Source: Amphiscolops sp. MND2022 (lineage: Eukaryota). Taken from it: DNA of 64,000 nt. The notes below the pieces were generated by a model. It was given only the letters and a program-made list of their open reading frames with translations. It had not been told where the DNA came from and did no database searches. Numbering within the stretch: position 1 is the first letter of the stretch; each line of letters opens with the position of its first letter. This document shows, in pieces, positions 2,131-63,645 of the stretch. The stretch covers positions 72,294,001 to 72,358,000 of the forward strand of contig OZ076409.1 of assembly GCA_964187785.1 (NCBI GenBank). Reading direction: 5' to 3'. The translations under genes were made by a program, and so were the position numbers.

Positions 2131-2354
2131 AACACCATAATATGTTCCATATAAGAAGTGAATCATTCCACATATATACCCGGTCTAATATTTCCAACTT
2201 AGCGATAACATTTATACATGATGGTTTTTGAAAGTGAGCTTCATAAGAGGTTGAGATGTAATAATACGTAAATGGACCCTAAGTTTCATTGAAATCTCAA
2301 TGGAATACGTCCAATCAACTTCAATCCTAACTATTATATAACAATAAACACTTG

Positions 2355-2395
2355 AGTACATTCCATCTCCCCATCGGGGGAGATGAGAATGTACT
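2355..2395. other. Long imperfect inverted repeat; type example of the GTACATT internal hairpin
   Basis: AGTACATTC-CATCTCCCC-ATCG-GGGGAGATG-A-GAATGTACT. Homologues at 16388, 19076, 28359, 32450, 37220, 47954 and 52725. Confidence 0.9.
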
Positions 2396-3243: not shown

Positions 3244-3263
3244 GGGCATGCCGAGGCATGCCC
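3244..3263. promoter_or_regulatory. Subterminal 20-bp palindrome GGGCATGCCGAGGCATGCCC (p53-response-element-like); 17 copies in the window
   Basis: Copies start at 3244, 4636, 18023, 19318, 28591, 33347, 38110, 40098, 42083, 44090, 48851, 53615, 55607, 57610, 59602, 61587 and 63574. It matches RRRCWWGYYY x2 with no spacer at 19 of 20 positions. The motif is seen directly; its function is inferred. Confidence 0.5.
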
Positions 3264-3320
3264 TTCGACGACGTATGCCAAATGAGCCATACCCGCACTC
3301 TGGAGTGCGGTAGCGGCTAG

Positions 3321-4707
3321 GTGGTTGGGGCGGTCCCCAGAACGCACAAGGAGGCGCGGGGAGGGTCCTGCGCCGACGTAGAATAATTTCATATAATACT
3401 AGTATCCTACATGGGTGTTTTAGAAGCGATTTTGGAATCTAACCGTAGGATTTGGATAATTTTTTGCATGCGGCCATAACTCGAAATTCTAAGAACTTTT
3501 TCCTACTGTCATTTTCACCGCAAATTGTTTTTTGTTGACTTATGGCCAAAAAACCGGAAATAACGTCCTTTTTAGACGTTATATCCGAAGTGTCGTCATA
3601 ACTTTTTTCCAGGGCATGCTAGCGTTCTCGTTCACTTTTACACTTAATTGCAGCATCTCAAAATACAACTGGTGGAAAATTTTGGTTGCATTCGGATCAC
3701 CCCCCACCGAGATAGAAGGGTTCCCCCCTCCAGTTTTACCCCCCAAATTTGCCAAAAAGCCAATTTTGAGCATGAAGCCGAGGGTTTAGCGTACCCGCAC
3801 CCTGTTGATGTTTTGTTGTACGTTTTGAGGTCAATCTGACGACATGTGAGGTTTTCACCCCCAACCCCCCCTGGGACCGGAAATGACACTTTTTTGTGTT
3901 TTTCGGCAGAATTTAGCCTGTTTCATTATTAGGCAGTCGTTTTAGGGACTCGTAGCAGGATATCGAAAGTGAAATACAACCTTATCACAACCCAGTGACA
4001 ACATGTTGGCCACTTGGAGGTATCATCATGACCGGAAGTGGGGTCAACCCCCCTTTTTGTGACCGCTTTTTGACCTTGTGCACCAAAATGCCAACAACTT
4101 GAGGCCTAATGACGCATTCAAATCTGTACAAAGATAGAATGTTAGACAACCGAAGTCCCGGAAGATCTTTAGCATATACCGGAAGTTACCCCCCATGACC
4201 GGAAGTTACCCAATGTGACCGGAAATGGTCCAAAAATTAATGTAAAGTTAATTTTTTCACCATTTCAAGACCACTTCGTTGAACATTTTCATTCCCAAAA
4301 CTAGCGTACTGGCTTGTTTTGCTGAAATTATGGAAATTGATGAGCTCTATCACCCCCGATAGCCTTCGAAGTTGACCTTGCGTCAACTTTGGAGGCTATC
4401 GATTCTGAAAATGAACAACAGAGTTCATTGTTGCTCTCGTTTTTTTCCGTTGTTTTTCCTCAAACATTCTTGAGACATAAAAATGGCCGTTAGTTGAAAT
4501 CAATATTTAGCCCATGTTATAGCTGGAGCAGCGAAGCGTTACACAGACTAGTGTGGTTTTGAAATTACATTATTTGAATTAACAACTGACCGTCTTAGTC
4601 AACTCCACACATTCATACCAACGCCCACCGTCTGTGGGCATGCCGAGGCATGCCCTTCGACGACGTATGACGAATCCACTCCAACGACACCCGCAGTCCT
4701 CAGCTAG
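3321..4707 (+). mobile_element. U2: 1387-bp unit, family C (related to U7)
   Basis: GTGG head with hairpins, CCGGAA cluster, GATAGCC-type hairpin at 4357-4401, palindrome at 4636-4655, CTAG end. Confidence 0.6.
4158..4226 (+). promoter_or_regulatory. Phased CCGGAA(G/A) motif cluster (ETS-like or iteron-like)
   Basis: CCGGAA at 4158, 4179, 4199 and 4219 (20-21-bp spacing). Spacing is retained in U7 at 17564, 17584 and 17604. Function is inferred only. Confidence 0.4.
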
Positions 4708-5783
4708 GTGGTTGGGGCGTTATTCCCCACGAAGTTCGCGGCCGCGGGAGACGGGACCCGCGGACCGCCCATCCAATGCAAAAATATACACTCTAAACAG
4801 CACCATTATAAACACGATCTCGAAAATGAACCGTAGGATTGTCTTGAAATTTTGCATACAGATAGAAGAGAAAATTCTAAGAACTTTTTCCTGCTGGCAC
4901 TTTTCCGAAAAAAATGTCCTTCATGGGTTTTTTCGGGTTTTTTTGGTTTTTTCTCATCTTTCTCATCTTTGATTAATCAATCACCGAATCAAAGGCCATT
5001 TTCAGCATGAAGGAATGCCCGTAGCAGCAAAGTGCACTTTTACAAAAATCATCAACGGTCAACGGTCTTTCGAACGGTCCAAAAAAATTTCCCCCCGGGG
5101 GCATCCAAAGTGCCGAAAAGTGCCAAAATATTTTTTTGGTCTGAATCATTCTGAAGAAATTGTTGATTTGAGCAGCAGGAACGGTCCGCACGGTCTCAAA
5201 TTGTAAGGGCAAAAATTGTCAGCGTTCAATGGCGGTTCCAAAAATATAAGTCAGTCACCTGTAGGAGTTGTAACAAAAAATCGATTTTTGGGTAATATGG
5301 CATGTTGAGTGGTTGGATGAGAAATACCCGTAACATGTTGAGTTTGATTTGATGCAGCAGTGGTTGCAGCTGCAGCAAACGTGAAAATGATAAAAGGGCT
5401 GGGATATATCACATGCACAAAGCAATGTTGCCATGGGGCTTTCCTTGTGCCGCAAAATGCCTCAATGCGATCATTATGTTTTTCCAAATGGGGTCGCAAA
5501 ACTAATTGTCACCGGTGTTCCTAGCGTTGCGCAGCAACTCGCAGGAACAACGGGGCTCTCCGAACGCAAAACGCAAGGCGCCCTTTCGTTGATTTGACGG
5601 CAGTCGCAGTTGATATTTTTTTGAATAAGTGATGAAATGTATCGTTGAATCCCAGAACATGTAACAAAAAAAAGGAAGGTGGAATTTCAACACATTGGTT
5701 TGTTGCTGATTTCACGTAAGCAGCAAACTTAATCAGCAACTCCTCAACTCCTCTCTCGTGGTTTGTTTAGCCTCCAGCGCTAG
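4708..5783 (+). mobile_element. U3: 1076-bp unit, family A short form
   Basis: Apparently identical to U11 (offset 16807). Shares its head and its last ~30 bp with long unit U5. Hairpin at 5512-5553. Confidence 0.65.
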
Positions 5784-6259
5784 GTGGTCAGGGGTGTTAC
5801 CCGTCAAAAATACTGCGAGGCCGGGGAGGGACCCGGGACCGAGCATATTATATAAGGATCAAATTCTACCTCTCCGACACTCGGTCATCTGGAGACGATC
5901 TCGAAAATGAACCGATAGGATTGGCTGAAAATTTGCACACAGATAGAAGAGCCAATTCTAAGAACTTTTTCCTGCTGACGTTTTGCCGGTTTATAAACAT
6001 CTTCATGGTTTTTTTTGGGTTTTTTTGGTTTTTTTAACCTTTTTTATCATTGATTAATCAATCACCGAATCAAAGGCCATTTTCACCATGAAGCAACGCC
6101 GATAGAGGCAAAGTGCATCTCTATGAAAATCATCAACGGTCAACGGTCTTTTGAACGGTCCAAAAAAATTGCCCCCTGGGGGCATCCAAAGTGCCGAAAA
6201 GTGCCAAAATAATTTTTTTGACTGAATCACTTGCATCAAATTGGTGATTTGAGCAGCCG

Positions 6260-7800
6260 GAACGGTCCGCACGGTCTCGGACCATAAGGGTAAAAAGTGT
6301 CAGCATTCAATGATGGTTTCAAAAATACAACTCATTCACCTGTAGGGGTCCTAATAAAAAAGTCGATTTTTTGGGGTGTATCGCTTGATGAGCAATGATG
6401 ACATTTTTTATACAGTACTTTTCATTCAATTACTCAACACGCAGCACCAGTAGCAGCGGAAGTCATATTTATGAAAAAGATTAGGGGGCTAGGGTCTATC
6501 CACGGTACTACCGCAAAGTAGGCCTGGGGCAATGATTGTGCCAAAAAATGCCTTATAGTGAAGAATGATTTTTTGCAAATCAGCTCATTTTTACAAACAT
6601 GTAAATTCCTCGTCAACAACGGTCCGCACGGTCTCCGACAATAAATTCAAAAAATGTCAGTGAGCTATGGTGACATGGAAAATGACATTGGATAAGCTCT
6701 GGGGGTCCTCTGAAAAAATTTGAATTTTTTGAGTCACGGTCCGAGTTCATCTCATACTTTGTATGAACTATTCATAATCATGTTACTCATAACTGAGTAC
6801 AGATAGCACCGTGGGTCATCTTTATGAAAATGAACATTGGCCAGTGGTCTAGCGATTGAGTGCAGAAAATATACCTTAGTGGCCATAGTGAAAGAAAAAA
6901 ATTCCAAGAAGTGGTATTTTCAATTTTTCAAGTCGACTCGGAGTCACAAAATAGTGATTTTCTCTTCAGGAACGGTCCGAACGGTCTCGGACCATAAAGT
7001 CAAATTTCGTCAGTGTATCATGGTGGCGTCCAAAAACCCATCAGAACAAGTGTAGGTAGCTCCTGAACGAATTTCGAATTTTTACGTGGGTCAGAGAGTT
7101 ATGGTGTCACATTGTAACAACATTTCGGGTATGCATATCTCCTGCCAGAGTACAGATAGCATCATGGGTCATCTTTTTGAAAATGAACGTGGGCCACTGG
7201 TCTATCGAATGGTTTTAAAAAATTTTCAATAAGTGCTGCATGGCGTGAATAAAATGCCAAAATGTTGTATTTAGCATTTTTTTGCACGACTCGGACCTAC
7301 AAAAAGCCCATATCTGCTCCACCAACGGTCCGTACGGTCTTCGACCATAAGCTCAAAAAGTGTCAGTGTGCTATGGTGACGCCCAAAAACCCATCAGTAC
7401 ACTGGTAGAGTGCTTCTGAAAAATTTTGGTGTTTTCACGTGAGTCCGAGAGTTATTGAGAGTTTTGTTGTCACATCGTAACTACATTTCGGTTACGTATA
7501 TCTCCTGACAGAGTACAGATAACAACATGGGTCATCTTTTGGAAAGTGAACGTGGGCCACTGGCCTACCGAATGGTGATAAAAAGTTTTCACCAGTTGCT
7601 ATACGGAGTGATGAAAGTGCTTACATGTGTTACATTGCATTTTTTCGAGCGACTCGGACTTACAAAAACCTCATTTGCCCGCCAACAACGGTCTGCACGG
7701 TCTCCGACCATAAGGTCAAAAACTTTTCGTGAGCTATGGTGACGCCCAAAAACCCATCAGTTTAGCTGTAGCATGCTTCTGTAAAAATTTGGACTTTTCG
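6260..7800. repeat. Internal diverged tandem repeat, period 353-363 bp
   Basis: AACGGTCYGHACGGTCT at 6261, 6618, 6971, 7324 and 7687. Confidence 0.88.
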
Positions 7801-9642
7801 TGCTCACAAAGTGAGATTTCGAGTTTTGAAAAACAATTTTTCAACCAAAAAACATGTTTTTCAGTGCGCAAAACCAATTTTTATATCACAATAGTCACAT
7901 AAAATGTTGTTTTGCATAACATGGCACGTGAATAGCATGAGGAAAGTGCCCACTGTGATTTTGGAGTCATTTTCAAAAAATCAGCTGCCATTAGACGTTA
8001 CACAAGAGAAAATGATACTTTACATATCGATACTTTGGTTGAGTGGAAAATAGCTATAGTGCTTTTTCGGTCAATCAAGACTCTTTTTTGTTCACAACCA
8101 AGTGTACAGTTGACGTGAAACACATATTGACCTTCCACAATGGTTATATTGTGATTTTGATTGCCAAAAGCCCAGTTGACAAACAAAAATCCAACCAAAA
8201 ATTTGTTTCCAATTCAATTTTTGAAGTATAGGACCGCCAATTTTTGCCCACAAACATCAACTAACATATTTTCTTCGTCCAATGGCATCGAAAAAACGCA
8301 ACTGGGCATTGACATGACGCTGACACTATCATTCGAGTAGTCATGGGCAACAATATTTACTAATCGAAAGGAAAATTCGTCGAAAATTCATACAACATCA
8401 CTTTTTTGGCGGAGTCGAATTGACAAAATGAAGCTTCATCACCAACTATTGGCTTCTAATGCAACCCACTGGCACTCTAATTTAGGAAAATGATGTTTAC
8501 ATAACTTTCAAGGAAGTTTATCAGAATCTGAGGTACCTAAAAATATCATACTGAATAGACATAATACTTCAAAATTGGCATTTTTCAAGATGTGTCACCA
8601 CTTTTTCGGTATCGGCGGTCCTATTGACACTGGTTTTGGTCGAACACTAAACATGAGTATCAACCAAGGTGGATACCAGACTTGTGAAAACAATACAAGG
8701 ACTTTGGACATGTCAAAAGTAGTGATGAGAAGAGATATTATCCAAAACTTCTTGTTATATGTCATATTCCTTTCCACCATTCTAATCGATGCTTGTCGGT
8801 TAAGGTATTAACGCCCAACAACAAACTCAGTGACAGCAAACAAGTCGAGTACCGTTATAAAAAGTGTTTACAATACCTGTTTCCCCGTTCTTGACACATT
8901 TTCCACCGTGTTCGTTCTTAACATGTAAAAATTTATCGCCTAACACCCAATTTTTGACAGGTCGAAATTTCGATTTTCGTCTTTTGAACACCACTATTGT
9001 GTCTGACGTAACCTGTGGCCTCCAAAACACTCAAAGATAAATGTATGACTGGTATAAAAGGCTTCAGTGGCTTGTAAGCCCCGATAACATGTTTTGCAAA
9101 GAAATATTCAAGTACTAAGTGAAAATTTCGAAGTCACATTGGAACATTAAAAACAGAATACATGAAAAACTTACCTATTTTCCGTCAATTACTATTAATT
9201 TATTATCAGTGTTGCGAATATGAGGTCTATACAGGGGTCTATATGAAAACTGTGGTGCATAAAGCATTCTGTTACACAAAACTTACCATAGCACCAAAAA
9301 AACTTCACTTTATTTTTTCCATTTTATTTGAATAAGTTGATCAACTAAACATCAATCAGCAGTTGAATTAGTAGGGTTATACAATTGTGGATGTGTTTCA
9401 AAGTCTTTGACTTTCCCGTTGTTCCAAACTCCTTTGTTACTGCTGAAAAGAGTCATATGTTTTACAAGCAATGTTCTTTAAAAGACAATTAGCAAAGACC
9501 GAAGCAACTTTACAAAAGGTAAAAAATTCTCAATATGTCTTTCAGTACTCGAATTTGGGTGAATGTATAGATTGGATTTGCATTTTTATAAAGACATTAT
9601 AACTGAATCTAGCATTTTTATAAAGAGCTTAAAAAAAAATTC

Positions 9643-9689
9643 GTGATAGCCTTCCAAGTTGGCCTTCGGCCAACTTGGAAGGCTATCAC
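9643..9689. other. Perfect inverted repeat (22-bp stem, 3-nt loop); type example of the GATAGCC internal hairpin
   Basis: GTGATAGCCTTCCAAGTTGGCC-TTC-GGCCAACTTGGAAGGCTATCAC. Imperfect homologues at 4357, 14383, 17762, 26298, 39726, 41711, 43701, 55232, 57224, 59227, 61213 and 63201. Confidence 0.92.
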
Positions 9690-10675
9690 TACAAACATCA
9701 AAAAACAATAATCCCTCTTCTTCCTGATTAGTCGTGGACAGTATTGTTGAGTCTTCCACTGTGTCTGTATTTGATAACATGTAACAAGGTGACACTTTAA
9801 TTTCGCTAAAGCTTATCATCACTGAATTCAAACACAACATTTTTCTTGGTGTCTGTCAAAAATACCTAAACAAATCTAAACATTCAAACTCTATGAATGC
9901 TTTGTGGTATGTCCAGTCGTTTTACTATGTCCTCCGTTATTGGCTTGAGGAACCCCGCATCCCCTCCACCTGACAATACGTTACATCTTCTGTTGAAAGC
10001 TTTCATTAGTAGCGTCATATTGCCAACAACTTCTAATGGAGTGTCAGCATTCAAAATTATGTAAAGAAAGGTATTATTCATGGTAATCAGATTGTGAAAA
10101 AAAACTTACCAAAAACAAATGAAAAAAAGTTCTGCGGCATACATAACACAAAAAGTCTTTTGAAAAGTTTTACAATGCTACTTTTTTAAAGTTTCTCATC
10201 GTTTGTTGTTTAATTTCTGAAGGGTAAGTCAAAATTTCACCTCTTCTCGTATCTCATCCCATTAGAACGGGGTACTATGGGCTGTTTTTATTGAATACTA
10301 ACCAACTCAGTGGCCATCACTTTGTATCCTAACATTACCAAGGATTTGAAGAAATCGCTCTGCATTAGTGACAAATTCATTTGTAGGAAAGTTTCATCGT
10401 CACTGATGTTATAGCAGTGGTGTTTCGAGGTTTGCATCACCTTGCATGATCAACGGAGTCTGCTTCAACGGAAGGCTCAAAATACATTATCGTGGTTTCA
10501 ACGGCATTCATTGTTGTTAATTCTGTGGCATGCTGGTGATGAATTTTATAGTTGATTCCATGACAAATTCAACAAAAACAGGTAGCTGTTTTTTTGTGTC
10601 ATACTTCAAAAACAAACTTTCAACCGGTTTGTTTAGGCCTCTACCTAGCAGTGCTCTAAATTGCCCCATCGCTAG

Positions 10676-13600
10676 GTGGTTGGGGCGTTATTCCCCACGA
10701 AGTTCGCGGCCGCGGGAGACGGGACCCGCGGACCGCCCATCCAATGCAAAAATATACACTCTAAACAGCACCATTATAAACACGATCTCGAAAATGAACC
10801 GTAGGATTGTCTTGAAATTTTGCATACGGATAGAAGAGAAAATTCTAAGAACTTTTTCCTGCTGGCACTTTTCCGAAAAAAATGTCCTTCATGGGTTTTT
10901 TTGGGTTTTTTTGGTTTTTTCTCATCTTTCTCATCTTTGATTAATCAATCACTGAATCAAAGGCCATTTTCAGCATGAAGGAATGCCCGTAGCGGCAAAG
11001 TGCACTTTTACAAAAATCATCAACAGTCAACGGTCTTTCGAACGGTTCAAAAAATTTTCCCCCCGGGGGCATCCAAAGTGCCGAAAAGTGCCAAAATATT
11101 TTTTTGGTCTGAATCATTTTGATGAAATTGTTGATTTGAGCAGCAGGAACGGTCCGCACGGTCTCGGACCATAAGGTCAAAAATTGTCAGTGAGTTATGG
11201 TGACGACCAAAATGACATTGGTTGAGCTGTAGGAGGCCTCTGAAAAAATTTGAATTTTTTGAGTCTACAATCCGAGCTGAACTGTTACGTATTATGAACT
11301 TTTCAGTACTATGTTGCCAATGACCGAGTACAGATAGATGCATGGGTCAGCCTTATTGAAATGAACATTGGGCACTGGGCTACCGGTTGAGTGCAAAAAT
11401 TATAGCCTAGTTGCTGTAGTCGAAGAAAAAAATTCTCAGAAGTGTTACTTTCAATTTGTCATGTTGACTCGGAGTTACAAAAAGGTGATTTTGTCGCCAA
11501 CAACGGTCCGAACGGTCTTGGACCATAAAATCAAAAATTGTCAGTGTGCTATGGTGACGCCCAAAAACCCACCAGAACATGCGTAGGATGCTTCTGAAAA
11601 ATTTTCGAAATTTTACGTCGGCCCAAGAGTTATTGTGTTACATCGTAACAACTTTTCGTGTATGCATATCTCCTGACAGAGTACAGATAGCATCATAGGT
11701 CATCTTTTTGAAAGTGAACGTGGGCCACTGGTGTATTGCATGGTTATAAAAAATTTTGACTAAGTGCTGCATGGCGTGAATAATATGCCAAGATGTGGTA
11801 TTTACGATATTTTAGCACGACTCGCACTGACAAAAAGCCTATTTCTGCCCCAGCAACGGTTCGAACGGTCATCAAGTATAAGGTCAAAAAATGTCAGTGT
11901 GACATGATGGCGCCTAAAAACCCACCAGAACATTGGTAGGAAGCTTCTGGAAAAATTTCGATTTTTTACGTGGGCCCGAGAGTTATGATGTTACATCGTA
12001 GCAACATTTCGTGTATGCATATCTCCTGACAGAGTACAGATAGCATTATGGGTCACCTTTTTGAAAAAGAACGTGGACCACTGGTCTATCGATTGGTTGT
12101 AAAAAGTTTTCAATCACTGTTGCACGGCGTGAATAAAATGCCAATATGTGGTATTTAGCATTTTTTTGCACGACTCGGACCTACAAAAGTCCTATTTCTG
12201 CTCCACCAACGGTCCGTACGTTTTTCGACCATAAGGTCAAAAAGTGTCAGTGTGCTATGGTGACGCCCAAAAACCCATCATTACACTTGTAGAGTGCTTC
12301 CGAAAATTTTTGGAATTTTTAGGTGAGTCCGAGAGTTATAGAGAGTTATGTTGTCACATCGTAACTACATTTCGGGAATGTATATCTCCTGACACAGTAC
12401 AGATACCAACATGGGTCATCTTTTGGAAAGTGAACGTGGGCCACTGGCCTACCGAATGGTGATAAAAAGTTTTCACCAGTTGCTACAGGGAATGATAAAA
12501 GTGCTTACATGGGTTACATAGCATTTTTTCAGGCGACTCGGACTTACAAAAAGCTCATTTGCTCGCGAACAACGGTCTGTATGGTCTCCACTCATAGGGT
12601 CGAAAATTTTTCGTGGGCTATGGTGACGCTCAAAAACCCATCAGTTCACTTGTGGGATGATTCTGTAAAAATTTAGTGTTTTCGTGCAGACTATGTTACA
12701 TATTACATTGGGAACCGTGTTTTTTTCTCACCAAAATCATGTTTCTGAGTGCCCAAAAACAATTTTTAAAGCCCAGTAGCCACCTAAAATGTTCTTTTGC
12801 ATAACATGGGATGTGAATACCGTGAAGAAAGTGCTCACTGTGGATTTGGAGTTATCTCGACAAAATCAGCTGCCATTAGACGTTACATTACAGAAAATCG
12901 TACCTTACATATCGATTCATGGGTTGAGTAAAAAACAGCTAAAGTTCTTTTTCAGTCAATCAAGACTCTTTTTTGTTCACAACCAAGTGTACAGCTGACG
13001 TCGAACCCATTTTGACCTTCCACAATGGTTATAATGCGATTTTGAGGGACAAAAGCCTCGTTGACCAACAAAGTTCCAAGATGAAATTGCTTTCCAAATC
13101 ATTTTTTGAAGTATAGGAACGCCATTTTTTGCCGACAACCATCAAATATCCACTTCTCTTGGCCCAGTGGCTTGTGAAAAATACACCTGGGCATTGACAA
13201 GGCACATGGACTTTAATTCGAGTAGTCATGTGCCACAACATTTGCTAATCGATAGCAAATTTTGTTGAAAATTGATACAACATCACATTTTTGGTGGACT
13301 CGAAATGACAAAATGGAGCTTCAGCAGCAACTATTGGCTTTTAGTGCAACTCACTGGCACTGTAATGTAGGAAAAAACGGTTTACAGTAGTTTCATGCTA
13401 CTTTTTCAGAATCTGAGGTACATAAAGTATCATACTGAATAGACATATAACTTCAACATCGGAATTTTTCCGGATGTGTCACCACTTTTGTGGTATCAGC
13501 GGTCCTACCAACAGTGTTTTTGATCTAACACTAAACCCGAGGATCAACCAAGATGTATATCAGACTTGTAAAATCAATGCAAGGACTTTCGACATGTCAA

Positions 13601-27304: not shown

Positions 27305-27468
27305 GTGGTCGTTAGCATGGGATTTTCTTTATGAGCGTAGTCCACTTTTTTTAGGCCGGGGTAGGGTCCCGGGCCGTTACCAATTTGTGGTCGTTAGCAT
27401 GGGATTTTCTTTATGAGCGTAGTCCACTTTTTTTAGGCCGGGGTAGGGTCCCGGGCCGTTACCAATTT
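27305..27468 (+). repeat. Exact 82-bp tandem duplication of the unit head
   Basis: 27305-27386 equals 27387-27468; both copies begin GTGGTCGTTAGC. Confidence 0.92.
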
Positions 27469-51900: not shown

Positions 51901-53691
51901 CACATACCGATCAACTCTACTTCTATTGTAGATTATCAGATTTTTGTTTAGAACAAATTTTTATGGATATAAAAAATTTTTAAACCCTCCAAAAATGAGC
52001 CAAAATAACACGAAAAAATGGACCCTAAATTTTTAAAATGTCAAAAAATTATCCAAACCACAGCTTCTTGGGGTTCTATCAGCTCCACGTGGTCCACAGA
52101 GTATGCTAAAACAGGTTTTGCCCGTTTTTGAGCAGTATATGAAAAAGCCGACATTTTTGGGGAAGAAAAACATACCATTTCCTAAATAATTTCAAATGCA
52201 GGCAATTTGCCGTATGAGAGTAGCACAGAAAACTATCACACACCGATCAACTCTACTTCTTTTGTAGATTATCAGAATTATGTTTAGAGTAAAGTTTTAT
52301 GGATATGAAAAATTTTTATACCCTCCAAAAATGGGCCAAAATGACACGAAAAAATTGACCTCAAATTTTTAAAATGTCAAAAAATTATCCAAACCACAGC
52401 GTCTTGGCGTTCTATCAACTCCAAATGACCTTCAGAGTATACCAAACCAGGTATTGCCAATCTTTTGAGCAATATTTAAAAACACCGACTATTTGGCAAG
52501 AACACCATAATATGTTCCATATAAGAAGTGAATCATTCCACATATATACCCGGTCTAATATTTTCAAATTAGCGATAACATTAATACATGATGTTTTTTG
52601 AAAGTGAGCTTCATAAGAGGTTGAGATGTAATAATACGTAAATGGACCCTAAGTTTCATTGAAATCTCAATGGAATACGTCCAATCAACTTCAATCCTAA
52701 CTATTATATAACAAGAAACACTTGAGTACATTCCATCTCCCCATCGGGGGAGATGAGAATGTACTTTTCAAAAGCCAAAATTTTCGAATTTTAAATCTTT
52801 TGTAACATTGTATGTAACTGTTGAAACGATGAACGAATAAAAATGCTTCTAGTACCTTCATCAATTTTTGCTTCAGCTCCTATTTCTGCAGAACAAAACC
52901 AAAAGACACACTTACAGCAGTTAAGTTCGATTGTATAACTCAGTGAATAAAGGTATGACTGAGGAAGTTCACAAGTTGTTTCAAAAGTTTCCGGCCTTCC
53001 AAAATCATGAAACGTCCACACAACCAAGATAGCAAGTGAAAGAATGCTGAATGCACCTTATTAGATGAGATAAATAACGTGTGGAACTTGCCATTATCTT
53101 AAGATGACGTTGATTTATGATCTTTTAAGGATAGTTCGATATGTGACCACAATAGTGGAAAACTTATTACTATTTGAAGAACACCGTGGAAAGCGTTCAG
53201 AAAGGACAGTATATTTGTTTCGAGCATGCATGCGTGTGTTCCTTTGGTGACGTTAGCTTAGTGTACATGACGGAGGTATTCGAGAGATTATGATAGAGTT
53301 TACTCACAAGTCTTTGTTTTTTAAAACTTTCTATGCCGTTGAGTACATTCGTAAGGTACATCCATCCCCTTCTCTGGGAATGTACGTTTGCCAAATGACT
53401 GTCATCCAAAATTCGTAATCCGGACGAGTTTAACTACATAAACATGTGATGAGCGTTTTCTATTCAAAACCGAATAACTTTTTTTTTCTCGAAAATGATG
53501 ATGGTTTTGATTTTGATGTCTTCTACTTTTATCATCATGCAAACGACCTTACCATGTCTCTCTTCTGTCGTCATTTGTACAACGCCACATAGCGTTCCGA
53601 CGCCCACCGTCTGTGGGCATGCCGAGGCATGCCCTTCGACGACGTATGCCAAATGAGCCATACCCGCACTCTGGAGTGCGGTAGCGGCTAG
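48929..53691 (+). mobile_element. U20: 4763-bp unit, family B long form (variant 1)
   Basis: Body matches U15 (offset ~15505). Hairpin at 52725-52765. Confidence 0.65.
51160..52500. repeat. Internal tandem repeat, ~4 x 336 bp
   Basis: Copy of 35655-36995. Confidence 0.88.
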
Positions 53692-55678
53692 GTGGGCGGG
53701 GGTAATTCCCCAACAAAAAAATCGGCCGGCGGGTCGGGTCCTGCCGGCCGTCCAAAATCAAAATCCTCCTAGTAGAAAACGGCATGTCAAACGAGCTATT
53801 TTTTTATTTAACCATACGAATTTCACCATTTTTTGCATGCGGCCCTGAAATGGCCATACGAGACGAAGTTCCTGCTGACGTTTTGCGATGTAAATGTTTT
53901 ATAAAAAGTTATGGCCGATTTGTCATTCACCTAGAAGGGTAAAATGAGGAAAATTTTAACAAAGTCGCTGATAACTCAAAATGTGGTAATTTTTGGACTT
54001 TGACTGTGAAACAAGCTTGGAACCTTCATTTCGTGGCTGGGGCATTGGACTGAACACAAAAGATGTAAAGTTTTTACGTTTTTTGAAAATTCGACATTTT
54101 TGAAATTTTTTTCACTACTATCAGTACCCCATATGTCAAAAACACCTCAGAAAAATATTTTTATTTGCTTTAAATTGGAAACCTTGGTATCCATGGTTTC
54201 TGTCGGAACCTACTCGCAGCCAAACACCCAACAGTTTGCATCCAATGTGAAAATAAAAATTTTTTCGGGGTCATAAGCGTTTCACAAGGATTTCTCAACT
54301 TAGTATTAATTTACAAAATGGTCATTTTGAACATAATATTTTCATCGAGGCTTGTCGGCTATAGCCTTAATGTTCTAGAACGGTCCCACTGGCAACGTAG
54401 CAACCATTTATAGTAATATAAAAGGTTAAAAAATTTTTTTCACCCGGTCTTCAGTCATTTTTCAGACATTCGGAACATAACTTAGAAAATTTTCGACCCA
54501 AATACCCATTTTTTGTCAGGTCGAAAATTAAAATTCAGCTATTAAAGCAAAATTATTTACTCTGACGTAACCAGTGGGGCCCATGATACTCAAAAACACC
54601 ATTGGCACTGGTACCAATGGCTCCAATAACATATGAGTCGCGATAAGACGTTATTTTGAGCAATACGTCTCAATTGAGGTAAAGATCTCGCAAGCCAGCG
54701 ATCACTGTGAAATGTAAATTCATTAAAAATTTACTCATTTTCGTCAATCACCATGTGCACAGAGTGCGTAGGGTGAGTTCCAGCACTCTAATGAGGTTTT
54801 TGAAGGCATCGGGTTGCTCAAGGGGTGGTATGAGACATTTTTTTCCTATATACTACTGTATTTTCCAATATTTTTAGCCCAATATCTGGAAATACAAACT
54901 TGACAAAATACTTTCAACTACTTTATTCAAAGGTTACAATATAGATGAACACTGTGGTTGATCAGAAACTTTCATCTCTTTCGTTTTCCGAAATATTTCC
55001 CTTCACATGTGTTATATTTTTAGCAGAATAAAAAATCGAAACTGAAATATACGCTATTTTGCTAATATAGAATCGCAATGATTGTGCCTAAAAACTCTTT
55101 AAACACTTCTAACGCAACCTTACGCACCCGAAATGATCGAAAATGCTATTCACAATTGTGACATGTGCTCTTTCTACGATCCTGGCTGGACAAGGTTTGC
55201 ATATTTTTCAAGTACCTGTCTGCTGAATCTTGTGATAGCCTTTTAAGTTGGCCTTGTGTCAACTTGGGAAGGCTATCACTTCAAACAACCATCAACAAAA
55301 ATAATTTTTGTTTATTGGATATTACAGTTGATTCCTTTTTTCGTGATTCTATATTACCGTTAGTATATTCCATGAGGTCACCTTACGATTGCATTGAGAC
55401 TTTGATAAAAACCTATGAACTCAAAGTCACATTTATATATTTTTTTGCCCAAAAAAATCATCAAAAACATCTATAATATATAAAATAGAGTCTTTAACAT
55501 TTTTACGTTTCAAGTTTCTGCCGTTATTAAGCCAATCAACTTCCTACAGCCACGCTCTCTGTCATTCTGTACAACGCCACATAGTGTTGCGACGTGCACG
55601 GTCTGTGGGCATGCCGAGGCATGCCCTTCGACGACGTATGCCGAATACCGCGGGCCTACGCCCGCGCTCCCCGGCTAG
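53692..55678 (+). mobile_element. U21: 1987-bp unit, family B 2-kb form
   Basis: Near-identical to U23 (offset 3995). Hairpin at 55232-55279. Confidence 0.65.
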
Positions 55679-57686
55679 GTGGGCGGGGAAATTTCACCCC
55701 GTTTGTATTCGGCCGACGGGTAGGGTCCTGGCGGCCGACGATCCGCCTTAAGCTAGCGGTATGTAGCAGAAATTGCAAAAAAAAGACCTAAAATTTAATC
55801 TAACCATTAGAATTTGCTCAAAATTTGCATGCGGCCCTCAAATCCTATTGCAAGACGAAGTTCCTGCTGACGCTAAGCGTTCTATAAACTTTATAAAAAG
55901 TTATGGCCAATTTTTTGTTCAAAATTTCAACATTTTTGGGAAATTTCTAATTTTTCACTTAATATCTCAAAATGTGTTAATTTTTGAACTTTGACTGTGA
56001 AACAAGCTTGGAACCTTCATTTCGTGGCTGTGGCATTGCACTGAACACAAAAGATGTAAAGTTTTTACATTTTTCGAAAATTCGAGATTTTTGAAATTTT
56101 TTTCACTACTATCAGTACCCCATATGTCAAAAACACATCAGAAAAAAATTTTTATTTGCTTTAAATTGGAAACCTTGGTATCCATGGTTACTGTCGGAAC
56201 CTACTCGCAGCCAAACACCCAACAGTTTGCATCCAATGTGAAAATAAAAATTTTTTTCTGGGTCATAAGCGTTTCACATGGATTTTACAACTTAGTTTTA
56301 ATTTACAAGTTGGTCATTTTGAACACAATATTTTCATCGAGGCTTGTCGGCTATAGCCTTAATGTTCTAGAACGGTCCTACTGGCAACGTAGGAACCATT
56401 TATAGCAATAGAAAGTTTTAAAAAAATATTTTCACCTAGTCTTCAGTCATTTTTCAGTCATTCGGAACTTAACTTAGAAAAATTTCGACCAAAATACCCA
56501 TTTTTTGTCAGGTCGAAAAATGAAATTAAGATTTTCAAGCAAAATTATTAACTCTGACGTAACCCATGGGGCCTATGATACTCAAAACAACGATTGACAC
56601 TGGTATCAATGGCTCCAATAACATATGAGTCGCGATAAGACGTTATTTTGAGCAATACGTCTCAATTGAGGTAAAGATCTCGCAAGCCAGCGATCACTGT
56701 GAAATGTGATTTCATCAAAAATTTACTCATTTTTGTCAATCACTATGTGCACAGAGTGCGTAGGATGAGTTTCAGCACTATAATGAGGTTTTTGATGTAA
56801 TCGGCCTGCTCAAGGTTGTGTATGAGACATTTTTTTCCCATATAGTACTATATTTTCCAAAATTTTTAGCCCATTATCTCAAAAACCTAACTTCGCAAAA
56901 TGCTTTCAACTACTTTATTCTAAGGTTAGAATATGAATGAACACTGTGGTTGATCAGAACCTCTCAATTTTTTTTGTTTTCCGAAAAAATACCTTCGCAT
57001 GGGTTACATTTATGGCAGAAGAGAAAGCAGAAGATAAAAAATACGCTATTTTGCTAAGATAGAAACGCGATGATTGTGCCTAAATACCCTTTAAATACTT
57101 CTAACGCAACCTTATGGACCCAATATGATTGGAAATACCGTTCACAGTCCTCACATGTACTCTTTCTACAATCCAGACTGCACATTTTTTGAAAATTTTA
57201 CATGTAGCTTTAAACTGATACTTGTGATAGCCTTTTAAGTTGACCTTGTGTCAACTTGGGAAGGCTATCACCACCAAAAACTATAAACAAAACTACCATT
57301 TGTTAATCGGATTTTGCTGTCGATGCCTATTTTCGTGATTGTATACTACCGTTAGTATCTTCCATCATGTCAGCTGACGATAGCATGCAGAGTTTGAAAA
57401 AATACCTATGAACTCGAAGACATTTTTGTTCATTATTTGGTAAATAATTTTATTTCTAAATAATAAATAACAACTTCTAACCTTTGAATACTATCACATT
57501 TGTTTTCTCTTCCGTTATCAGTCTTCCGTCACCCATGATCTGAGCCTATGTCATGACCCTGTGATTTGTATAACAACGCCACATACCAACATCAACGCCC
57601 ACCGTCTGTGGGCATGCCGAGGCATGCCCTTCGACGACGTATGCCAAATAAGCCTTACCCGCACTCTGGAGTGCGGTAGCAGCTAG
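55679..57686 (+). mobile_element. U22: 2008-bp unit, family B 2-kb form
   Basis: Hairpin at 57224-57271; body related to U18. Confidence 0.65.
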
Positions 57687-59673
57687 GTGGGCGGGGGTAA
57701 TTCCCCAACAAAAAAATCGGCCGGCGGGTCGGGTCCTGCCGGCCGTCCAAAATCAAAATCCTCCTAGTAGAAAACGGCATGTCAAACGAGCTATTTTTTT
57801 ATTTAACCATACGAATTTCACCATTTTTTGCATGCGGCCCTGAAATGGCCATACGAGACGAAGTTCCTGCTGACGTTTTGCGATGTAAATGTTTTATAAA
57901 AAGTTATGGCCGATTTGTCATTCACCTAGAAGGGTAAAATGAGGAAAATTTTAACAAAGTCGCTGATAACTCAAAATGTGGTAATTTTTGGACTTTGACT
58001 GTGAAACAAGCTTGGAACCTTCATTTCGTGGCTGGGGCATTGGACTGAACACAAAAGATGTAAAGTTTTTACGTTTTTTGAAAATTCGACATTTTTGAAA
58101 TTTTTTTCACTACTATCAGTACCCCATATGTCAAAAACACCTCAGAAAAATATTTTTATTTGCTTTAAATTGGAAACCTTGGTATCCATGGTTTCTGTCG
58201 GAACCTACTCGCAGCCAAACACCCAACAGTTTGCATCCAATGTGAAAATAAAAATTTTTTCGGGGTCATAAGCGTTTCACAAGGATTTCTCAACTTAGTA
58301 TTAATTTACAAAATGGTCATTTTGAACATAATATTTTCATCGAGGCTTGTCGGCTATAGCCTTAATGTTCTAGAACGGTCCCACTGGCAACGTAGCAACC
58401 ATTTATAGTAATATAAAAGGTTAAAAAATTTTTTTCACCCGGTCTTCAGTCATTTTTCAGACATTCGGAACATAACTTAGAAAATTTTCGACCCAAATAC
58501 CCATTTTTTGTCAGGTCGAAAATTAAAATTCAGCTATTAAAGCAAAATTATTTACTCTGACGTAACCAGTGGGGCCCATGATACTCAAAAACACCATTGG
58601 CACTGGTACCAATGGCTCCAATAACATATGAGTCGCGATAAGACGTTATTTTGAGCAATACGTCTCAATTGAGGTAAAGATCTCGCAAGCCAGCGATCAC
58701 TGTGAAATGTAAATTCATTAAAAATTTACTCATTTTCGTCAATCACCATGTGCACAGAGTGCGTAGGGTGAGTTCCAGCACTATAATGAGGTTTTTGAAG
58801 GCATCGGGTTGCTCAAGGGGTGGTATGAGACATTTTTTTCCTATATACTACTGTATTTTCCAATATTTTTAGCCCAATATCTGGAAATACAAACTTGACA
58901 AAATACTTTCAACTACTTTATTCAAAGGTTACAATATAGATGAACACTGTGGTTGATCAGAAACTTTCATCTCTTTCGTTTTCCGAAATATTTCCCTTCA
59001 CATGTGTTATATTTTTAGCAGAATAAAAAATCGAAACTGAAATATACGCTATTTTGCTAATATAGAATCGCAATGATTGTGCCTAAAAACTCTTTAAACA
59101 CTTCTAACGCAACCTTACGCACCCGAAATGATCGAAAATGCTATTCACAATTGTGACATGTGCTCTTTCTACGATCCTGGCTGGACAAGGTTTGCATATT
59201 TTTCAAGTACCTGTCTGCTGAATCTTGTGATAGCCTTTTAAGTTGGCCTTGTGTCAACTTGGGAAGGCTATCACTTCAAACAACCATCAACAAAAATAAT
59301 TTTTGTTTATTGGATATTACAGTTGATTCCTTTTTTCGTGATTCTATATTACCGTTAGTATATTCCATGAGGTCACCTTACGATTGCATTGAGACTTTGA
59401 TAAAAACCTATGAACTCAAAGTCACATTTATATATTTTTTTGCCCAAAAAAATCATCAAAAACATCTATAATATATAAAATAGAGTCTTTAACATTTTTA
59501 CGTTTCAAGTTTCTGCCGTTATTAAGCCAATCAACTTCCTACAGCCACGCTCTCTGTCATTCTGTACAACGCCACATAGTGTTGCGACGTGCACGGTCTG
59601 TGGGCATGCCGAGGCATGCCCTTCGACGACGTATGCCGAATACCGCGGGCCTACGCCCGCGCTCCCCGGCTAG
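57687..59673 (+). mobile_element. U23: 1987-bp unit, family B 2-kb form
   Basis: Copy of U21. Hairpin at 59227-59274. Confidence 0.65.
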
Positions 59674-61658
59674 GTGGGCGGGGGTAATTCCCCAACAAAA
59701 ATTACGGCCGGCGGGTTGGGTCCTGCCGGACGTCAAATAGCAAAGAATATCTAGTAGGAAACGGCGACACAGAATCGCGATTTTTAAATCTAACCACAAT
59801 TTTTTGGACTTGGAGTGCATGCGGCCCTGAAATGCCCATACGAATCGAAGTTCCTGCTGACATTAAGCGATTGAAATAATATATAAAAAGTTATGGCCCA
59901 TTTTTCACTCACAAAGAAGGGTAAAATGAGGAAATTTTTAACAAAGTCGCTGATAACTCAAAATGTGATAATTTTTGGACATTGACTGTGAAACAAGCTC
60001 GGAACCTTCATTTCGTGGCTGTGGCATTGCACTGAACACAAAAGATGTAAAGTTTTTACATTTTTTCAAAATTCGAAATTTTTGAAATTTTTTTCACTAC
60101 TATCAGTACCCCATATGTCAAAAACGCCTCAGAAAAAATTTTTTATTTGCTTTAAATTGGAAACCTTGGTATCCATGGTTTCTGTCGGATCCTACTCGCA
60201 GTCAAACACCCAACAGTTTGCATCCAATGTGGAAATAAAAATTTTTTCGGGGTCATAAGCGTTTCACAAGGATTTCTCAACTTAGTTTCAATTTACAAAT
60301 TGGTCACATTGAACACATTATTTTCATCGAAGCGCGTCAGATACCGCCCTAAAGCTCACGAACGGTCCTACTGGCAACGTAGCAACCATTTATAGTAATA
60401 TAAAAGATTAAAAAAATTTTTTCACCCGGTCTTCAGTCATTTTTCAGTCATTCGGAACTTAACTTAGAAAAATTTCGACCAAAATACCCATTTTTTGTCA
60501 GGTCGAAAAATCGAATTCAGATTTTTAAGCAAAATTATTAACTCTGACGTAACTCATGGGGCCCATGATACTCAAAACAACGATTGACACTGGTATCAAT
60601 GGCTCCAATAACATATGAGTCGCGATCGGACGTTATTTTGAGCAATACGTCTCAATTGAGGTAAAGATCTCGCAAGCCAGCGATCACTGTCAAATGTGAT
60701 TTCATCAAAAATTTACTCATTTTTGTCAATCATTATGTGCACAGAATGCGTAGGGTGCGTTTCAGCACTATAATGAGATTTTTGAATGCATCGAGTTGCT
60801 CAAGGGGTGGTACGAGACATTTTTGTCCCATATACTACTGTATTTTCCAAAATTTTTAGCCCAATATCTGGAAATACAAACTTGACAAAATACTTTCAAC
60901 TACTTTATTCAAAGATTACGATATAGATGAACACTGTGGTTGATCAGAAACTTTCATCTCTTTCGTTTTCCGAAATATTTTCCTTCGCATGTGTTATATT
61001 TGTATCAGAAAAAAAATCGAAACTGAAAAATACGCTATTTTGCTAATATAGAATCGCAATGATTGTGCCTAAAAACTCTTTAAACACTTCTTACGCGACC
61101 TTACGCACCCAAAATGATCGAAAATGCTATTCACAATGATGACATGTGCTCTTTCAACGATCCTGGCTGGACAAGGTTTGCATATTTTTCAAGTACCTGT
61201 CAGCTGAATCTTGTGATAGCCTTTTAAGTTGGCCTTGTGTCAACTTGGGAAGGCTATCACATCAAACAACCATCAACAAAAATAATTTTTGTTTATTGGA
61301 TATTACAGTTTATACCTTATTTCGTGATTCTATACTACCGTTAGTATATTCCATGAGGTCACCTTACGATTGCATTCAGACTTTGATGAAAACCTATGAA
61401 CTCAAAGTCACATTTATATATTTTTTGCCCAAAAAAATCATCAAATACATCTAATATATATAAAATTGAGTCTTTAACTTTTTTACGTTTCAAGTTTCTG
61501 CCGTTATTAGGCCAATCAACTTCCTACAGCCACGCTCTCTGTCATACTGTACAACGCCACATAGTGTTGCGACGTGCACAGTCTGTGGGCATGCCGAGGC
61601 ATGCCCTTCGACGACGTATGCCGAATACCGCGGGCCTACGCCCGCGCTCCCCGGCTAG
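59674..61658 (+). mobile_element. U24: 1985-bp unit, family B 2-kb form
   Basis: Head as U16. Hairpin at 61213-61260. Confidence 0.65.
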
Positions 61659-63645
61659 GTGGGCGGGGGTAATTCCCCAACAAAAATTACGGCCGGCGGG
61701 TTGGGTCCTGCCGGACGTTCAAATAGCGCGAAGCATCTAGTAGAAAACAAGGAGTCCTGAAACAGCGATTTTAAAATTGAACCGTTAGAATTTGGTTTTA
61801 GATTGCATGCGGCCCTAAAATCCCCATACGAATGGAAGTTCCTGCTAGCGTTAAGCGATTGAAATAATATATAAAAAGTTATGGCCTATTTTTGGGTCAC
61901 CGAGAAGGTCAAAATGAAGAAAATTTTAACTAAGTTGCTGATAACTCAAAATGTGTTAATTTTTGGACTTTGACTGTGAAACAAGCTTAGAACCTTCATT
62001 TCGTGGCTGTGGCATTGCACTGAACACAATAGATGTAGAGTTTTTACATTTTTTGAAAATTCGACATTTTTGATTTTTTTTCACTACTATCAGTACACTA
62101 TATGTCAAAAACACCTCTGAAAAAAATTATTATTTGCTTAAAATTGGAAACCTTGGTATCCATGGTTTCTGTCGGAACCTACTCGCTGCCAAACACCCAA
62201 CAGTTTGCATCCAATGTGAATTTAAAATTTTTTTCGAGGTCATAAGGGTTTCACAAGGTTTTCATAACCTAGTATTAAACTACAAACTGGTCATTTTCAA
62301 CATAATATCTTTGTCGAGGCATGTCGGATATAGTCCTATTGCTCACGAACGGTCCTACTGGCAACGTAATAACCATTTATAGAAATGTAAAGTTATAAAA
62401 AAATTTTTTCACCCGGTCTTCAGTCATTTTTCAGTCATTCGGAACTTAACTTAGAAAAATTTCGACCAAAATATCCATTTTTTGTCAGGTCGAAAAATCA
62501 AATTAGGAATTTTAAGCAAAATTATTAACTCTGACGTAACCCATGGGGCCCATGATACTCAAAACAACGATTGACACTGGTATCAATGGCTCCAATAACA
62601 TATGAGTCGCGATAAGACGTTATTTTGAACATTACGTCTCAATTGAGGTAAAGATCTCGCAAGCCAGCGATCACTGTGAAATGTGATTTCATCAAAAATT
62701 TACTCCTTTTTGTCAATCACTATGTGCACAGAATGCGTAGGGTGCGTTTCAGCACTATAATGAGGTTTTTGAAGGCATCGAGTTGCTCAAAGGATGGTAT
62801 GAGACATTTTTGTCCCATATACTACTGTATTTTCCAAAATTTTTAGCCCAATATCTGGAAATACAAACTTAACAAAATACTTTCAACTACTTTATTCAGA
62901 GGTTACAATATAGATGAACACTGTGGTTGATCAGAAACTTTCATCTCTTTCGTTTTCCGAAATATTTCCCTTCGCATGTGTTACATTCGTAGCAGAAAAA
63001 AAAATCGAAACTGAAAAATACGCAATTTTGCTAATATAGAATCGCACTGATTGTGCCTAAAAACTCTTTAAACACTTCTAACGCAACCTTAGGCACCGAA
63101 AATGATCGAAAATGCTATTCACAATGGTGACATGTGCTCTTTCTACGATCCTGGCTGGACAAGGTTTGCATATTTTTCAAGTACCTGTCAGCTAAATCTT
63201 GTGATAGCCTTTTCAGTTGGCCTTGTGTCAACTTGGGAAGGCTATCACATCAAAAAACCATCAACAAAAATAATTTTTGTTTATTGGATCTTACAGTCGA
63301 TACTTTTTTTCGTGATTCTATACTACCGTTAGTATATTTCATCAGGTCACCTTACGATTGCATTCAGTCTTTGATAAAAACCTATGAACTCAAAGTCACA
63401 TTTATATATTTTTTGGCCAAAAAAACATCAAAAATATCTAAAATATATAAAATAGAGTCTTTAACATTTTTACGTTTCAAGTTTTTGCCGTTATTAAGCC
63501 AATCAACTTCCTACAGCCACGCTCTCTGTCATACTGTACAACGCCACATAGTGTTGCGACGTGCACAGTCTGTGGGCATGCCGAGGCATGCCCTTCGACG
63601 ACGTATGCCGAATACCGCGGGCCTACGCCCGCGCTCCCCGGCTAG
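61659..63645 (+). mobile_element. U25: 1987-bp unit, family B 2-kb form
   Basis: Head as U17. Hairpin at 63201-63248. Confidence 0.65.

What the first reader, a model, noticed from the sequence alone, without database searches (positions are those of the whole stretch)
3321..63645. Unit lengths are quantised even among units with different interiors
Seen: 1058/1070/1076/1076; 1278 (U13 minus its duplication)/1284/1287; 1387/1407; 1983-2008 (8 units); 4714/4733/4892 (family A) and 4760-4763 (family B). Families A and B reach ~4.7-4.9 kb by different routes: ~355-bp repeats in A, versus a 720-bp duplication plus 336-bp repeats in B. U10 matches U3 and U9 in size with a different interior. Inference: selection on total length (circle size, packaging by a helper, or nucleosome multiples), with sub-repeats serving as stuffer DNA.
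Basis: partly seen in the sequence, partly recalled or inferred. Interest (0 to 1): 0.72.

Follow-up and report, generated by a model that had tools for sequence, protein, structure and literature searches.

The report
Gene-less mobile units with proportional hairpin
This is a head-to-tail stack of gene-less, rolling-circle-type mobile DNA units from 1 to 5 kb long, and every unit carries one long hairpin about four-fifths of the way along whatever its size, which points to an untested geometric rule of how they are copied rather than to a fixed set of allowed sizes.

Summary
The lengths are exactly as reported: 24 complete non-coding units joined at CTRG|GTG junctions. Most same-size units are relatives, so a universal size quantum is not shown. 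With homologues collapsed, the leftover coincidences (U10 with U3/U9, A with B) give p = 0.02-0.48, and no nucleosome ladder fits. Same size with unalignable interiors is real for U10 and for U8 versus U13. A stronger rule sits underneath. In 24 of 24 units the most stable internal hairpin lies at 0.764-0.801 of unit length, across 1.06-4.9 kb and three unrelated hairpin sequences (3' arm = 46 + 0.243 x 5' arm, r = 0.998). Families A and B enlarged both arms by different routes, and a hairpin copy displaced to 0.95 has decayed. Ends are Helitron-like at 3' (CTAG) but start GTGG, not TC; units reshuffle exactly at the junction. Best reading: non-autonomous rolling-circle elements that insert at each other's ends, with the hairpin as second-strand start placed so that two syntheses finish together. 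That step is inferred. No partner enzyme or host genome was available.

The parts
1..3320 (+). U1, 3' part of a family B unit cut by the window edge
   Evidence: 3303 of 3320 bases match U15
3321..4707 (+). U2, 1387 bp, class V, hairpin type I at 0.764 (4357-4401)
4708..5783 (+). U3, 1076 bp, class S, hairpin type III at 0.768 (centre ~5533)
5784..10675 (+). U4, 4892 bp, family A; ~355-bp repeats; perfect 22-bp-stem hairpin type I at 0.794 (9643-9689)
10413..10465 (+). Decayed copy of hairpin type III at 0.95 of U4 (-4.1 kcal/mol against -13.8 to -16.2 in U3, U9, U10)
10676..15408 (+). U5, 4733 bp, family A, hairpin type I at 0.788 (14383-14430)
15409..16692 (+). U6, 1284 bp, class T, hairpin type II at 0.779; own 3' end, CTGG
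16693..18099 (+). U7, 1407 bp, class V, hairpin type I at 0.775
18100..19386 (+). U8, 1287 bp, class T, hairpin type II at 0.775
19387..20456 (+). U9, 1070 bp, class S, hairpin type III at 0.774
20457..21514 (+). U10, 1058 bp, class S by 5' module and hairpin type III at 0.787; interior unalignable to U3/U9; ends CTGG
21515..22590 (+). U11, 1076 bp, identical to U3 but with different neighbours on both sides
22591..27304 (+). U12, 4714 bp, family A, hairpin type I at 0.792 (26298-26345)
27305..28664 (+). U13, 1360 bp (1278 plus an exact 82-bp duplication of its first bases, 27305-27468), class T, hairpin type II at 0.776 (0.789 with the duplication)
28665..38186 (+). U14 and U15, family B, 4760 and 4762 bp; 2-kb-type first 1.49 kb, ~720-bp duplication, four 336-bp repeats, hairpin type II at 0.800 and 0.801
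38187..44166 (+). U16-U18, 2-kb class K (1983, 1991, 2006), hairpin type I at 0.780-0.788
44167..53691 (+). U19 and U20, family B, 98.6-98.7% copies of U14 and U15 (duplicated block)
53692..63645 (+). U21-U25, class K (1987, 2008, 1987, 1985, 1987), hairpin type I at 0.782-0.788; U21 and U23 differ by one base
3317..3324 (+). Example junction CTAG|GTGG (one of 25); cut placed before GTGG
   Evidence: the 82-bp duplication of U13 begins exactly at GTGG; identity between copies breaks at the junction
3321..3520 (+). Example 5' module shared by all classes: two short hairpins, then motifs at nearly fixed offsets (about +39, +120, +180) with variable spacers of near-constant length
3205..3320 (+). 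Example of the commonest 3' module: GGCATGCC palindrome 67-76 bases from the end, short terminal hairpin, CTAG

Best explanation
The units are non-autonomous rolling-circle (HUH/Helitron-type) elements. Shown: they are non-coding, share a 5' module, end in CTRG, lie head to tail and are exchanged as whole units at the junction; each has exactly one intact 40-50-nt hairpin at 0.76-0.80 of its length. Inferred: a partner enzyme encoded elsewhere nicks before GTGG, peels off the + strand and closes it at CTAG; because every resident unit starts with GTGG, new copies land at existing junctions and build a mixed array. Inferred, weaker: the hairpin, once single-stranded, starts second-strand synthesis back toward the 5' end while displacement still has the last fifth to go; a ~4:1 speed ratio makes both finish together. 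A large change in one arm is then tolerated only with a matching change in the other, which freezes each lineage's length while its interior drifts, and in-register recombination among copies keeps it frozen. The size classes are lineages held by this ratio, not quanta. My odds: proportional placement is real and selected 0.85; rolling-circle self-targeting elements 0.65; second-strand timing as the cause 0.35.
For: Best hairpin at 0.755-0.81 in 24 of 24 units with 64-nt windows, 20 of 20 tested with 56-nt windows; motif centres 0.764-0.801, 3' arm = 46 + 0.243 x 5' arm, r = 0.998 for 24 units and for 6 class means. Three unrelated hairpin sequences obey it, and types I and II each occur in small and large units. 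Six class means span 0.031: P = 5e-7 under a uniform null, 0.005 if only 3 are independent. Growth from 2 kb to 4.76 kb in 2-10 random insertions keeps the fraction in 1-8% of runs; A and B both did it by different routes. Hairpin III displaced to 0.95 in U4 has decayed; B leaves the 2-kb sequence at 1489, just before hairpin I, and carries hairpin II at 0.80. Identity between U3 and U11 stops within 1-5 bases of both junctions. 5' hairpins: 4 of 8 consensus pairs show compensatory change in 14 sequences. Helraiser model: 5' end essential, 3' end bypassable, circles with exact junctions, lagging-strand synthesis on the displaced strand, double-stranded circles required (PMC4778049, PMC5876387, passages).
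Against: No transposase in the window (42 ORFs, longest 198 aa; 16 of 42 scanned in Pfam, none above cut-off), no genome to look in, no solo insertion or empty site, no circle observed. The 5' end is not TC. A terminal hairpin folds near the 3' end in only 9 of 17 units examined. Helraiser donors described in the passages read carry laboratory cassettes and no such internal site is mentioned. With 44-nt windows the rule holds as top hit in 20 of 24 (second-best in the other 4). The ratio drifts from 3.2 to 4.0 and allows about 100 bp of slack, so it does not alone explain the 9-bp spread of the 1.28-kb trio (drift alone: p 0.03-0.11). The rule was found post hoc in one window, the classes share modules, and the fit leans on A and B. 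The strand preference of the hairpin is weak (+ more stable in 11 of 17) and confounded by G-richness. No skew or k-mer polarity switch at the hairpin.
Confidence: 0.45

Rival explanations
1. Descent plus concerted evolution only. Each size class is one lineage with a low indel rate and in-register gene conversion; cross-class size matches and the hairpin fraction are inherited layout and chance.
For: Most same-size units are collinear. Only about 0.06 indels per substitution in 7 close pairs picked from the 41, giving expected length drift of 20-36 bp at saturation, so U10 versus U3/U9 is unsurprising (P 0.3-0.55). 2-kb units are mosaics of one another. Net indels are no smaller than random signs give in 37 of 41 pairs. 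Coincidence test p up to 0.48.
Against: Cannot explain one fraction across a 4.6-fold size range reached by a few large events, with three unrelated hairpins, nor the decay of the displaced hairpin.
Confidence: 0.15
2. Integrated arrays of circular satellites of a helper virus. Total length is selected for packaging (classes of about 1.07, 1.3-1.4, 2.0 and 4.7-4.9 kb), and the hairpin is the complementary-strand origin, as the second conserved region is in CRESS viruses.
For: A and B converge on 4.7-4.9 kb by different routes; trio and U10 keep size with weak or no interior homology (p 0.0002-0.11 if the trio is independent). Non-coding satellites with a second stem-loop and size set by encapsidation exist in begomoviruses (PMC4756297, passages); primers at a second conserved region in gemini- and nanoviruses (PMC10653810, passages).
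Against: No half/quarter ladder. The junction does not sit in the loop of a conserved stem. Packaging constrains total length, not an internal ratio. 0 hits in 4 of 4 scans of viral contigs.
Confidence: 0.15
3. Site-specific recombinase cassettes. A tyrosine or serine recombinase excises and inserts double-stranded circles at the 8-bp junction; the internal palindrome is a protein-bound terminus or resolution site where two motors starting at the junction at unequal speeds meet.
For: Asymmetric 8-bp core, one orientation, exact unit-wise exchange. Hairpin I keeps its sequence on both arms with no compensatory change in 9 aligned copies, as a protein-binding palindrome would. A constant ratio fits any two-motor race.
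Against: No conserved inverted binding sites flank the core. The 3' hairpin plus CTRG and the variable 3' ends fit a rolling-circle terminator better. No polarised motifs on the two arms.
Confidence: 0.17
4. Nucleosome multiples set the allowed lengths.
For: Sub-repeats of 336 and ~353 bp are about two nucleosome repeats (repeat length from general knowledge); class S is 3.0 x 355.
Against: Period scan 150-220 bp: p = 0.13-0.58; at 178 bp the classes are 5.99, 7.21, 7.85, 11.2, 26.8.
Confidence: 0.04

Closest known systems
Non-autonomous Helitrons (HLE1) and their head-to-tail arrays (PMC11417382, PMC4778049, PMC5876387, PMC12001565; passages read)
   Same: No coding capacity, 3' CTRR often after a short hairpin, no inverted ends, exact head-to-tail junctions, variable 3' ends as expected from end bypass.
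   Different: 5' end GTGG rather than TC; base after CTAG is G rather than T; array mixes six or more unit types rather than one; internal hairpin at a fixed fraction of length, not found in the passages read.
Helentron-associated elements (HINE, DINE-1, Cg_HINE; PMC7492417 passages, PMC4067079 search listing)
   Same: Conserved end modules around unrelated interiors; central arrays of tandem repeats; whole elements can lie in tandem.
   Different: No 11-12-bp subterminal inverted repeats (best anchored match 7 nt in 3 of 17 units), no microsatellite, no TT ends; ends in CTAG.
Begomovirus delta-, beta- and alphasatellites (PMC4756297 passages; PMC10653810 passages)
   Same: Non-coding circles in principle, helper-dependent, with a second stem-loop; size classes and proposed stuffer DNA.
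   Different: No nonanucleotide stem-loop at the junction, no half/quarter size ladder, chromosomal tandem array, internal ratio rather than total size conserved.
Replitrons and IS91-family elements (PMC10288648 passages)
   Same: HUH transposons with oriented, target-specific insertion and end hairpins.
   Different: The junction could be read as a short direct repeat, but no solo copy is available to test it; Replitrons are reported from plants, algae and protists, and no transposase is present here.
Target-specific Paramecium Helitrons (PMC13085455 passages)
   Same: Precedent for Helitrons with their own target sequence and absolute orientation bias.
   Different: Those target telomeric repeats and encode the transposase; here the apparent target is the elements' own junction.

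Membership tests
Helitron HLE1 | 3' end CTRR | tested here: met
   23 CTAG and 2 CTGG of 25 junctions
Helitron HLE1 | Short hairpin just before the 3' end | tested here: inconclusive
   Folds in 9 of 17 units examined; absent or weak in S, A, U2, U6
Helitron HLE1 | 5' end TC | tested here: not met
   GTGG in 24 of 25, GTGC in 1
Helitron HLE1 | Insertion between A and T, no target duplication | not testable with these tools
   No solo copy or flank in the window; no genome held. Within the array CTAG is followed by G
Helitron HLE1 | RepHel transposase in an autonomous partner sharing the ends | not testable with these tools
   None in the window; no related locus found
HLE2 / Helentron (HINE) | Short asymmetric terminal inverted repeats of 11-17 nt | tested here: not met
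   Best anchored complement 7 nt in 3 of 17 units, at most 5 in the rest
HLE2 / Helentron (HINE) | TT ends and microsatellite in the left module | tested here: not met
   Ends are GTGG and CTRG; no microsatellite array among the 13 rows
HLE2 / Helentron (HINE) | Central tandem repeats | tested here: met
   Only in A and B
CRESS-virus satellites | Nick site in the loop of a conserved stem-loop | tested here: not met
   No conserved stem encloses the junction
CRESS-virus satellites | Sizes at one half or one quarter of the helper genome | tested here: inconclusive
   Not met against the largest units (0.22, 0.27, 0.29, 0.42); helper size unknown
Replitrons | Short direct terminal repeats and Y1 Rep transposase | not testable with these tools
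   Needs a solo copy with flanks and the partner gene
Retrozymes / ribozyme arrays | Self-cleaving ribozyme in each monomer | tested here: not met
   Rfam: 0 at gathering score in the window; 4 chance-level matches in 3000-29000, none a ribozyme

The most novel reading that the evidence does not exclude
A previously undescribed class of eukaryotic rolling-circle replicon: gene-less cassettes that insert at each other's CTAG|GTGG ends and carry a dedicated second-strand origin whose position scales with element length (about 4:1) to synchronise strand displacement with second-strand synthesis, so that sub-repeats and captured tails act as balancing stuffer. The three hairpin types would mark three partner enzymes, and 4.7-4.9 kb might be a packaging ceiling of a helper.
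Probability: 0.25. Interest if true: 0.88.

Novelty: new variant of a known kind. Interest (0 to 1): 0.7.

Why it matters
How the peeled-off single strand of a Helitron-type element becomes the double-stranded circle needed for insertion is modelled but not tied to any sequence in the papers read (PMC5876387, passages). A site whose position scales with element length in natural elements of five sizes gives a direct, cheap test: move the hairpin and count circles. A scale-invariant internal landmark is also a rare fingerprint of a kinetic race between two DNA machines, readable from sequence alone. Self-targeting would explain how mixed arrays of large units grow without a host target gene.

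Tried and rejected
Nucleosome ladder: rejected. Half/quarter ladder: not seen. Compensating small indels: P at or below 0.05 in 4 of 41 non-independent pairs (two in B, two in K), not taken as support. Rod-like fold with the hairpin as tip: z -1.6 to 1.8 in 10 of 10 units. Skew or k-mer polarity switch at the hairpin, or a second landmark at fixed fraction: nothing convincing. Terminal inverted repeats: not general. RNA families, tRNA, Pfam: none. Collection scans for end and hairpin motifs: viral 0 in 4 scans; metagenomes 0 and 16 half-site matches that lack the second arm and any further similarity; prokaryote genomes 0 and 1 match in a Rhizobium plasmid, not examined further and taken as chance. 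Sequencing runs: 3 small-share holders, no RNA holder listed; their contigs are short and low in depth and showed no solo insertion flank in the rows printed, so they say nothing on habitat, circles or copy number. An ungapped U1/U15 comparison (0.45) was an offset artefact, corrected. Ten paper searches listed nothing on a GTGG-starting self-targeting array or a length-proportional hairpin; subscription papers, Repbase and supplements were not seen, so this does not show absence from print.
Full report
Observation. The window is one continuous head-to-tail array. An exact search finds 22 copies of the 8-base junction, and allowing one mismatch together with the downstream 5' motif adds 3 more; all 25 are on the + strand. 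The cut lies between CTRG and GTG: an exact 82-bp duplication in U13 starts at GTGG, and identity between the identical units U3 and U11 stops 1 base left of the first cut and 5 bases right of the second, where their neighbours differ. There is no gene: 42 stop-to-stop frames of 100 aa or more, longest 198; 16 of these scanned in Pfam gave nothing above cut-off; no Rfam family or tRNA.

Is it more than descent and chance? Mostly the size classes are lineages. U3/U11 are identical, U3/U9 73%, U2/U7 61%, and the four 2-kb pairs tested 78-90% in global alignments. Removing shared motifs, U10's arms show no homology to U3 or U9 (z -1.2 to 1.0), U8 versus U13 none in the 5' arm (z 1.4), U6-U8 clear (8.5) and U6-U13 marginal (4.3; cross-class pairs reach 3.8) among 28 pairs. 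A, B and the 2-kb class share a 62% segment. With homologues collapsed to 7 lineages the two remaining near-coincidences have p = 0.02-0.48; with the 1.28-kb trio counted as independent p = 0.0002-0.11. Using the indel rate of 7 close pairs that I picked from the 41, drift alone gives U10's 12-18-bp difference with P 0.3-0.55 and the trio's 9-bp spread with P 0.03-0.11. No period of 150-220 bp fits the classes (p 0.13-0.58), and they are not halves or quarters of the largest. So a universal quantum is not shown, though the trio and the A/B match leave room for some constraint on total length.

What is really conserved. Mapping motifs showed long internal palindromes of two types; a third, in the 1.06-1.08-kb units including U10, appeared on reading the sequence and in the alignment. 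An unguided folding scan then put the single most stable internal hairpin at 0.76-0.80 of unit length in 20 of 20 units tested with 56-nt windows, 24 of 24 with 64-nt windows, and 20 of 24 with 44-nt windows, where it was second-best in the other 4. Motif centres fall at 0.764-0.801; the 3' arm equals 46 + 0.243 times the 5' arm, r = 0.998. Type III occurs in class S; type II in T (1.28 kb) and B (4.76 kb); type I in V (1.4 kb), K (2.0 kb) and A (4.7-4.9 kb). The large units got there by a few big events in both arms: B keeps the first 1489 bases of the 2-kb layout, stops just short of where hairpin I lies in K, adds a ~720-bp duplication and four 336-bp repeats, and has hairpin II with a 950-bp tail; A has an S-type start, ~355-bp repeats, a K-like block with hairpin I and a 1-kb tail that is unalignable between U4 and U5 (47-54%) yet 1009 and 1002 bases long. 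In a simple random-insertion model, growth from 2 to 4.76 kb in 2-10 events keeps the fraction in range in 1-8% of runs. U4 still carries the S-type end with hairpin III at 0.95, decayed to -4.1 kcal/mol against -13.8 to -16.2 where it sits at 0.77-0.79. Caveats: the rule was found after the fact in one window; the classes share modules; the ratio runs from 3.2 to 4.0.

What the units are. All share a 5' module: two short hairpins with compensatory changes in 4 of 8 consensus pairs and motifs at nearly fixed offsets. The 3' ends come in several types, all closing in CTRG, 9 of 17 examined with a hairpin close to the end. This works like a non-autonomous Helitron: in Helraiser the 5' end is essential, the 3' hairpin is a terminator that can be bypassed, and circles with exact junctions form (PMC4778049, passages); the plus strand is displaced, lagging-strand synthesis is proposed on it, and circles must be double-stranded to insert (PMC5876387, passages). 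Head-to-tail arrays are known (PMC5876387, PMC12001565, passages). It fails membership of HLE1 on the 5' TC and of HLE2 on inverted repeats and TT ends (PMC11417382, PMC7492417, passages). If the nick always falls before GTGG, as it always falls before T in Helitrons, then each resident unit's start is a target, which would build a one-way mixed array. That is inference; no solo copy or enzyme was available.

Mechanism of the ratio. A constant difference between arms would indicate a fixed delay; a constant ratio with a small intercept indicates two processes of different speed that start or finish together. The simplest fit to rolling-circle chemistry is that the hairpin starts second-strand synthesis when it is exposed, with four-fifths of the unit to copy while displacement has one-fifth left. 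CRESS viruses prime the complementary strand at a second conserved region near a potential stem-loop (PMC10653810, passages), which is a precedent for the site but not for scaling. Against it: strand preference is weak and confounded by base composition; hairpin I conserves sequence rather than only pairing, which also suits a double-stranded protein site; nothing changes polarity at the hairpin. I put this step at 0.35. The rule would make lengths sticky, since a large indel in one arm needs a matching one in the other, and the mosaic identity among 2-kb units shows in-register exchange that further holds length. It allows about 100 bp of slack, so the tighter matches rest on descent, or on an added limit such as packaging (PMC4756297, passages, for the plant-virus precedent).

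Outside evidence was thin. Motif scans of viral, metagenome and prokaryote collections found no relative. Three runs hold short, low-depth contigs of the 2-kb family, one crossing the same junction. Earlier notes of this scan held nothing on this genome or sequence; a word search returned unverified notes on other head-to-tail rolling-circle arrays, which I did not test. Ten paper searches listed no description of this junction or of a length-proportional hairpin; I read passages only, of PMC10288648, PMC12001565, PMC13085455, PMC5876387, PMC11417382, PMC10653810, PMC7492417, PMC4778049 and PMC4756297, and no supplements or repeat databases, where such families may be recorded.

Verdict. The stated lengths are right; quantisation as a general law is not established and nucleosome multiples are rejected; the underlying constraint is a hairpin fixed at about four-fifths of each unit. 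Novelty: new variant of a known kind (rolling-circle non-autonomous elements), with a one-in-four chance of a new class. Interest 0.70.

Noticed in passing
window 27305-27468: Exact 82-bp duplication that begins at the first base of U13; fixes the cut before GTGG and looks like an aborted 5' fragment.
   Followed up: partly
window 28558-45495 and 44058-61003: Higher-order duplication of about 15.5 kb (92% overall; U14/U19 and U15/U20 about 98.6%), so B and K counts are partly pseudo-replicates.
   Followed up: yes
window 14744-14765 (U5), same in U12: The 3'-type palindrome sits 630-640 bases from the end in family A, with matched changes on both arms that keep it perfect; the unit continues past it, as after end bypass.
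   Followed up: partly
5' 200 bases of every unit, e.g. window 3321-3520: Spacers between the 5' motifs differ completely in sequence yet keep length within a few bases; contigs of two other runs have 69 other letters in place of a 72-base spacer.
   Followed up: partly
window 16498-16505: A junction-like CCAG|GTGG inside U6, 191 bases before its end, without the 5' module behind it.
   Followed up: no
window 4030-4230 and 17260-17620: Class V interiors carry several copies of a CCGGAAG motif; resemblance to ETS-factor sites is recalled, not tested.
   Followed up: no
hairpin types I and II: Most copies keep a one-base asymmetry between the arms (bulge), which may be what a protein recognises; U4 alone is a perfect 22-bp stem.
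   Followed up: partly
whole window: CpG observed/expected 0.94 at 38% GC: no sign of methylation-driven CpG loss.
   Followed up: no
run X3, record 13: A low-depth contig joins a 2-kb-type 3' end to a 2-kb-type 5' end through the same junction; tandem copy or circle cannot be told apart.
   Followed up: no
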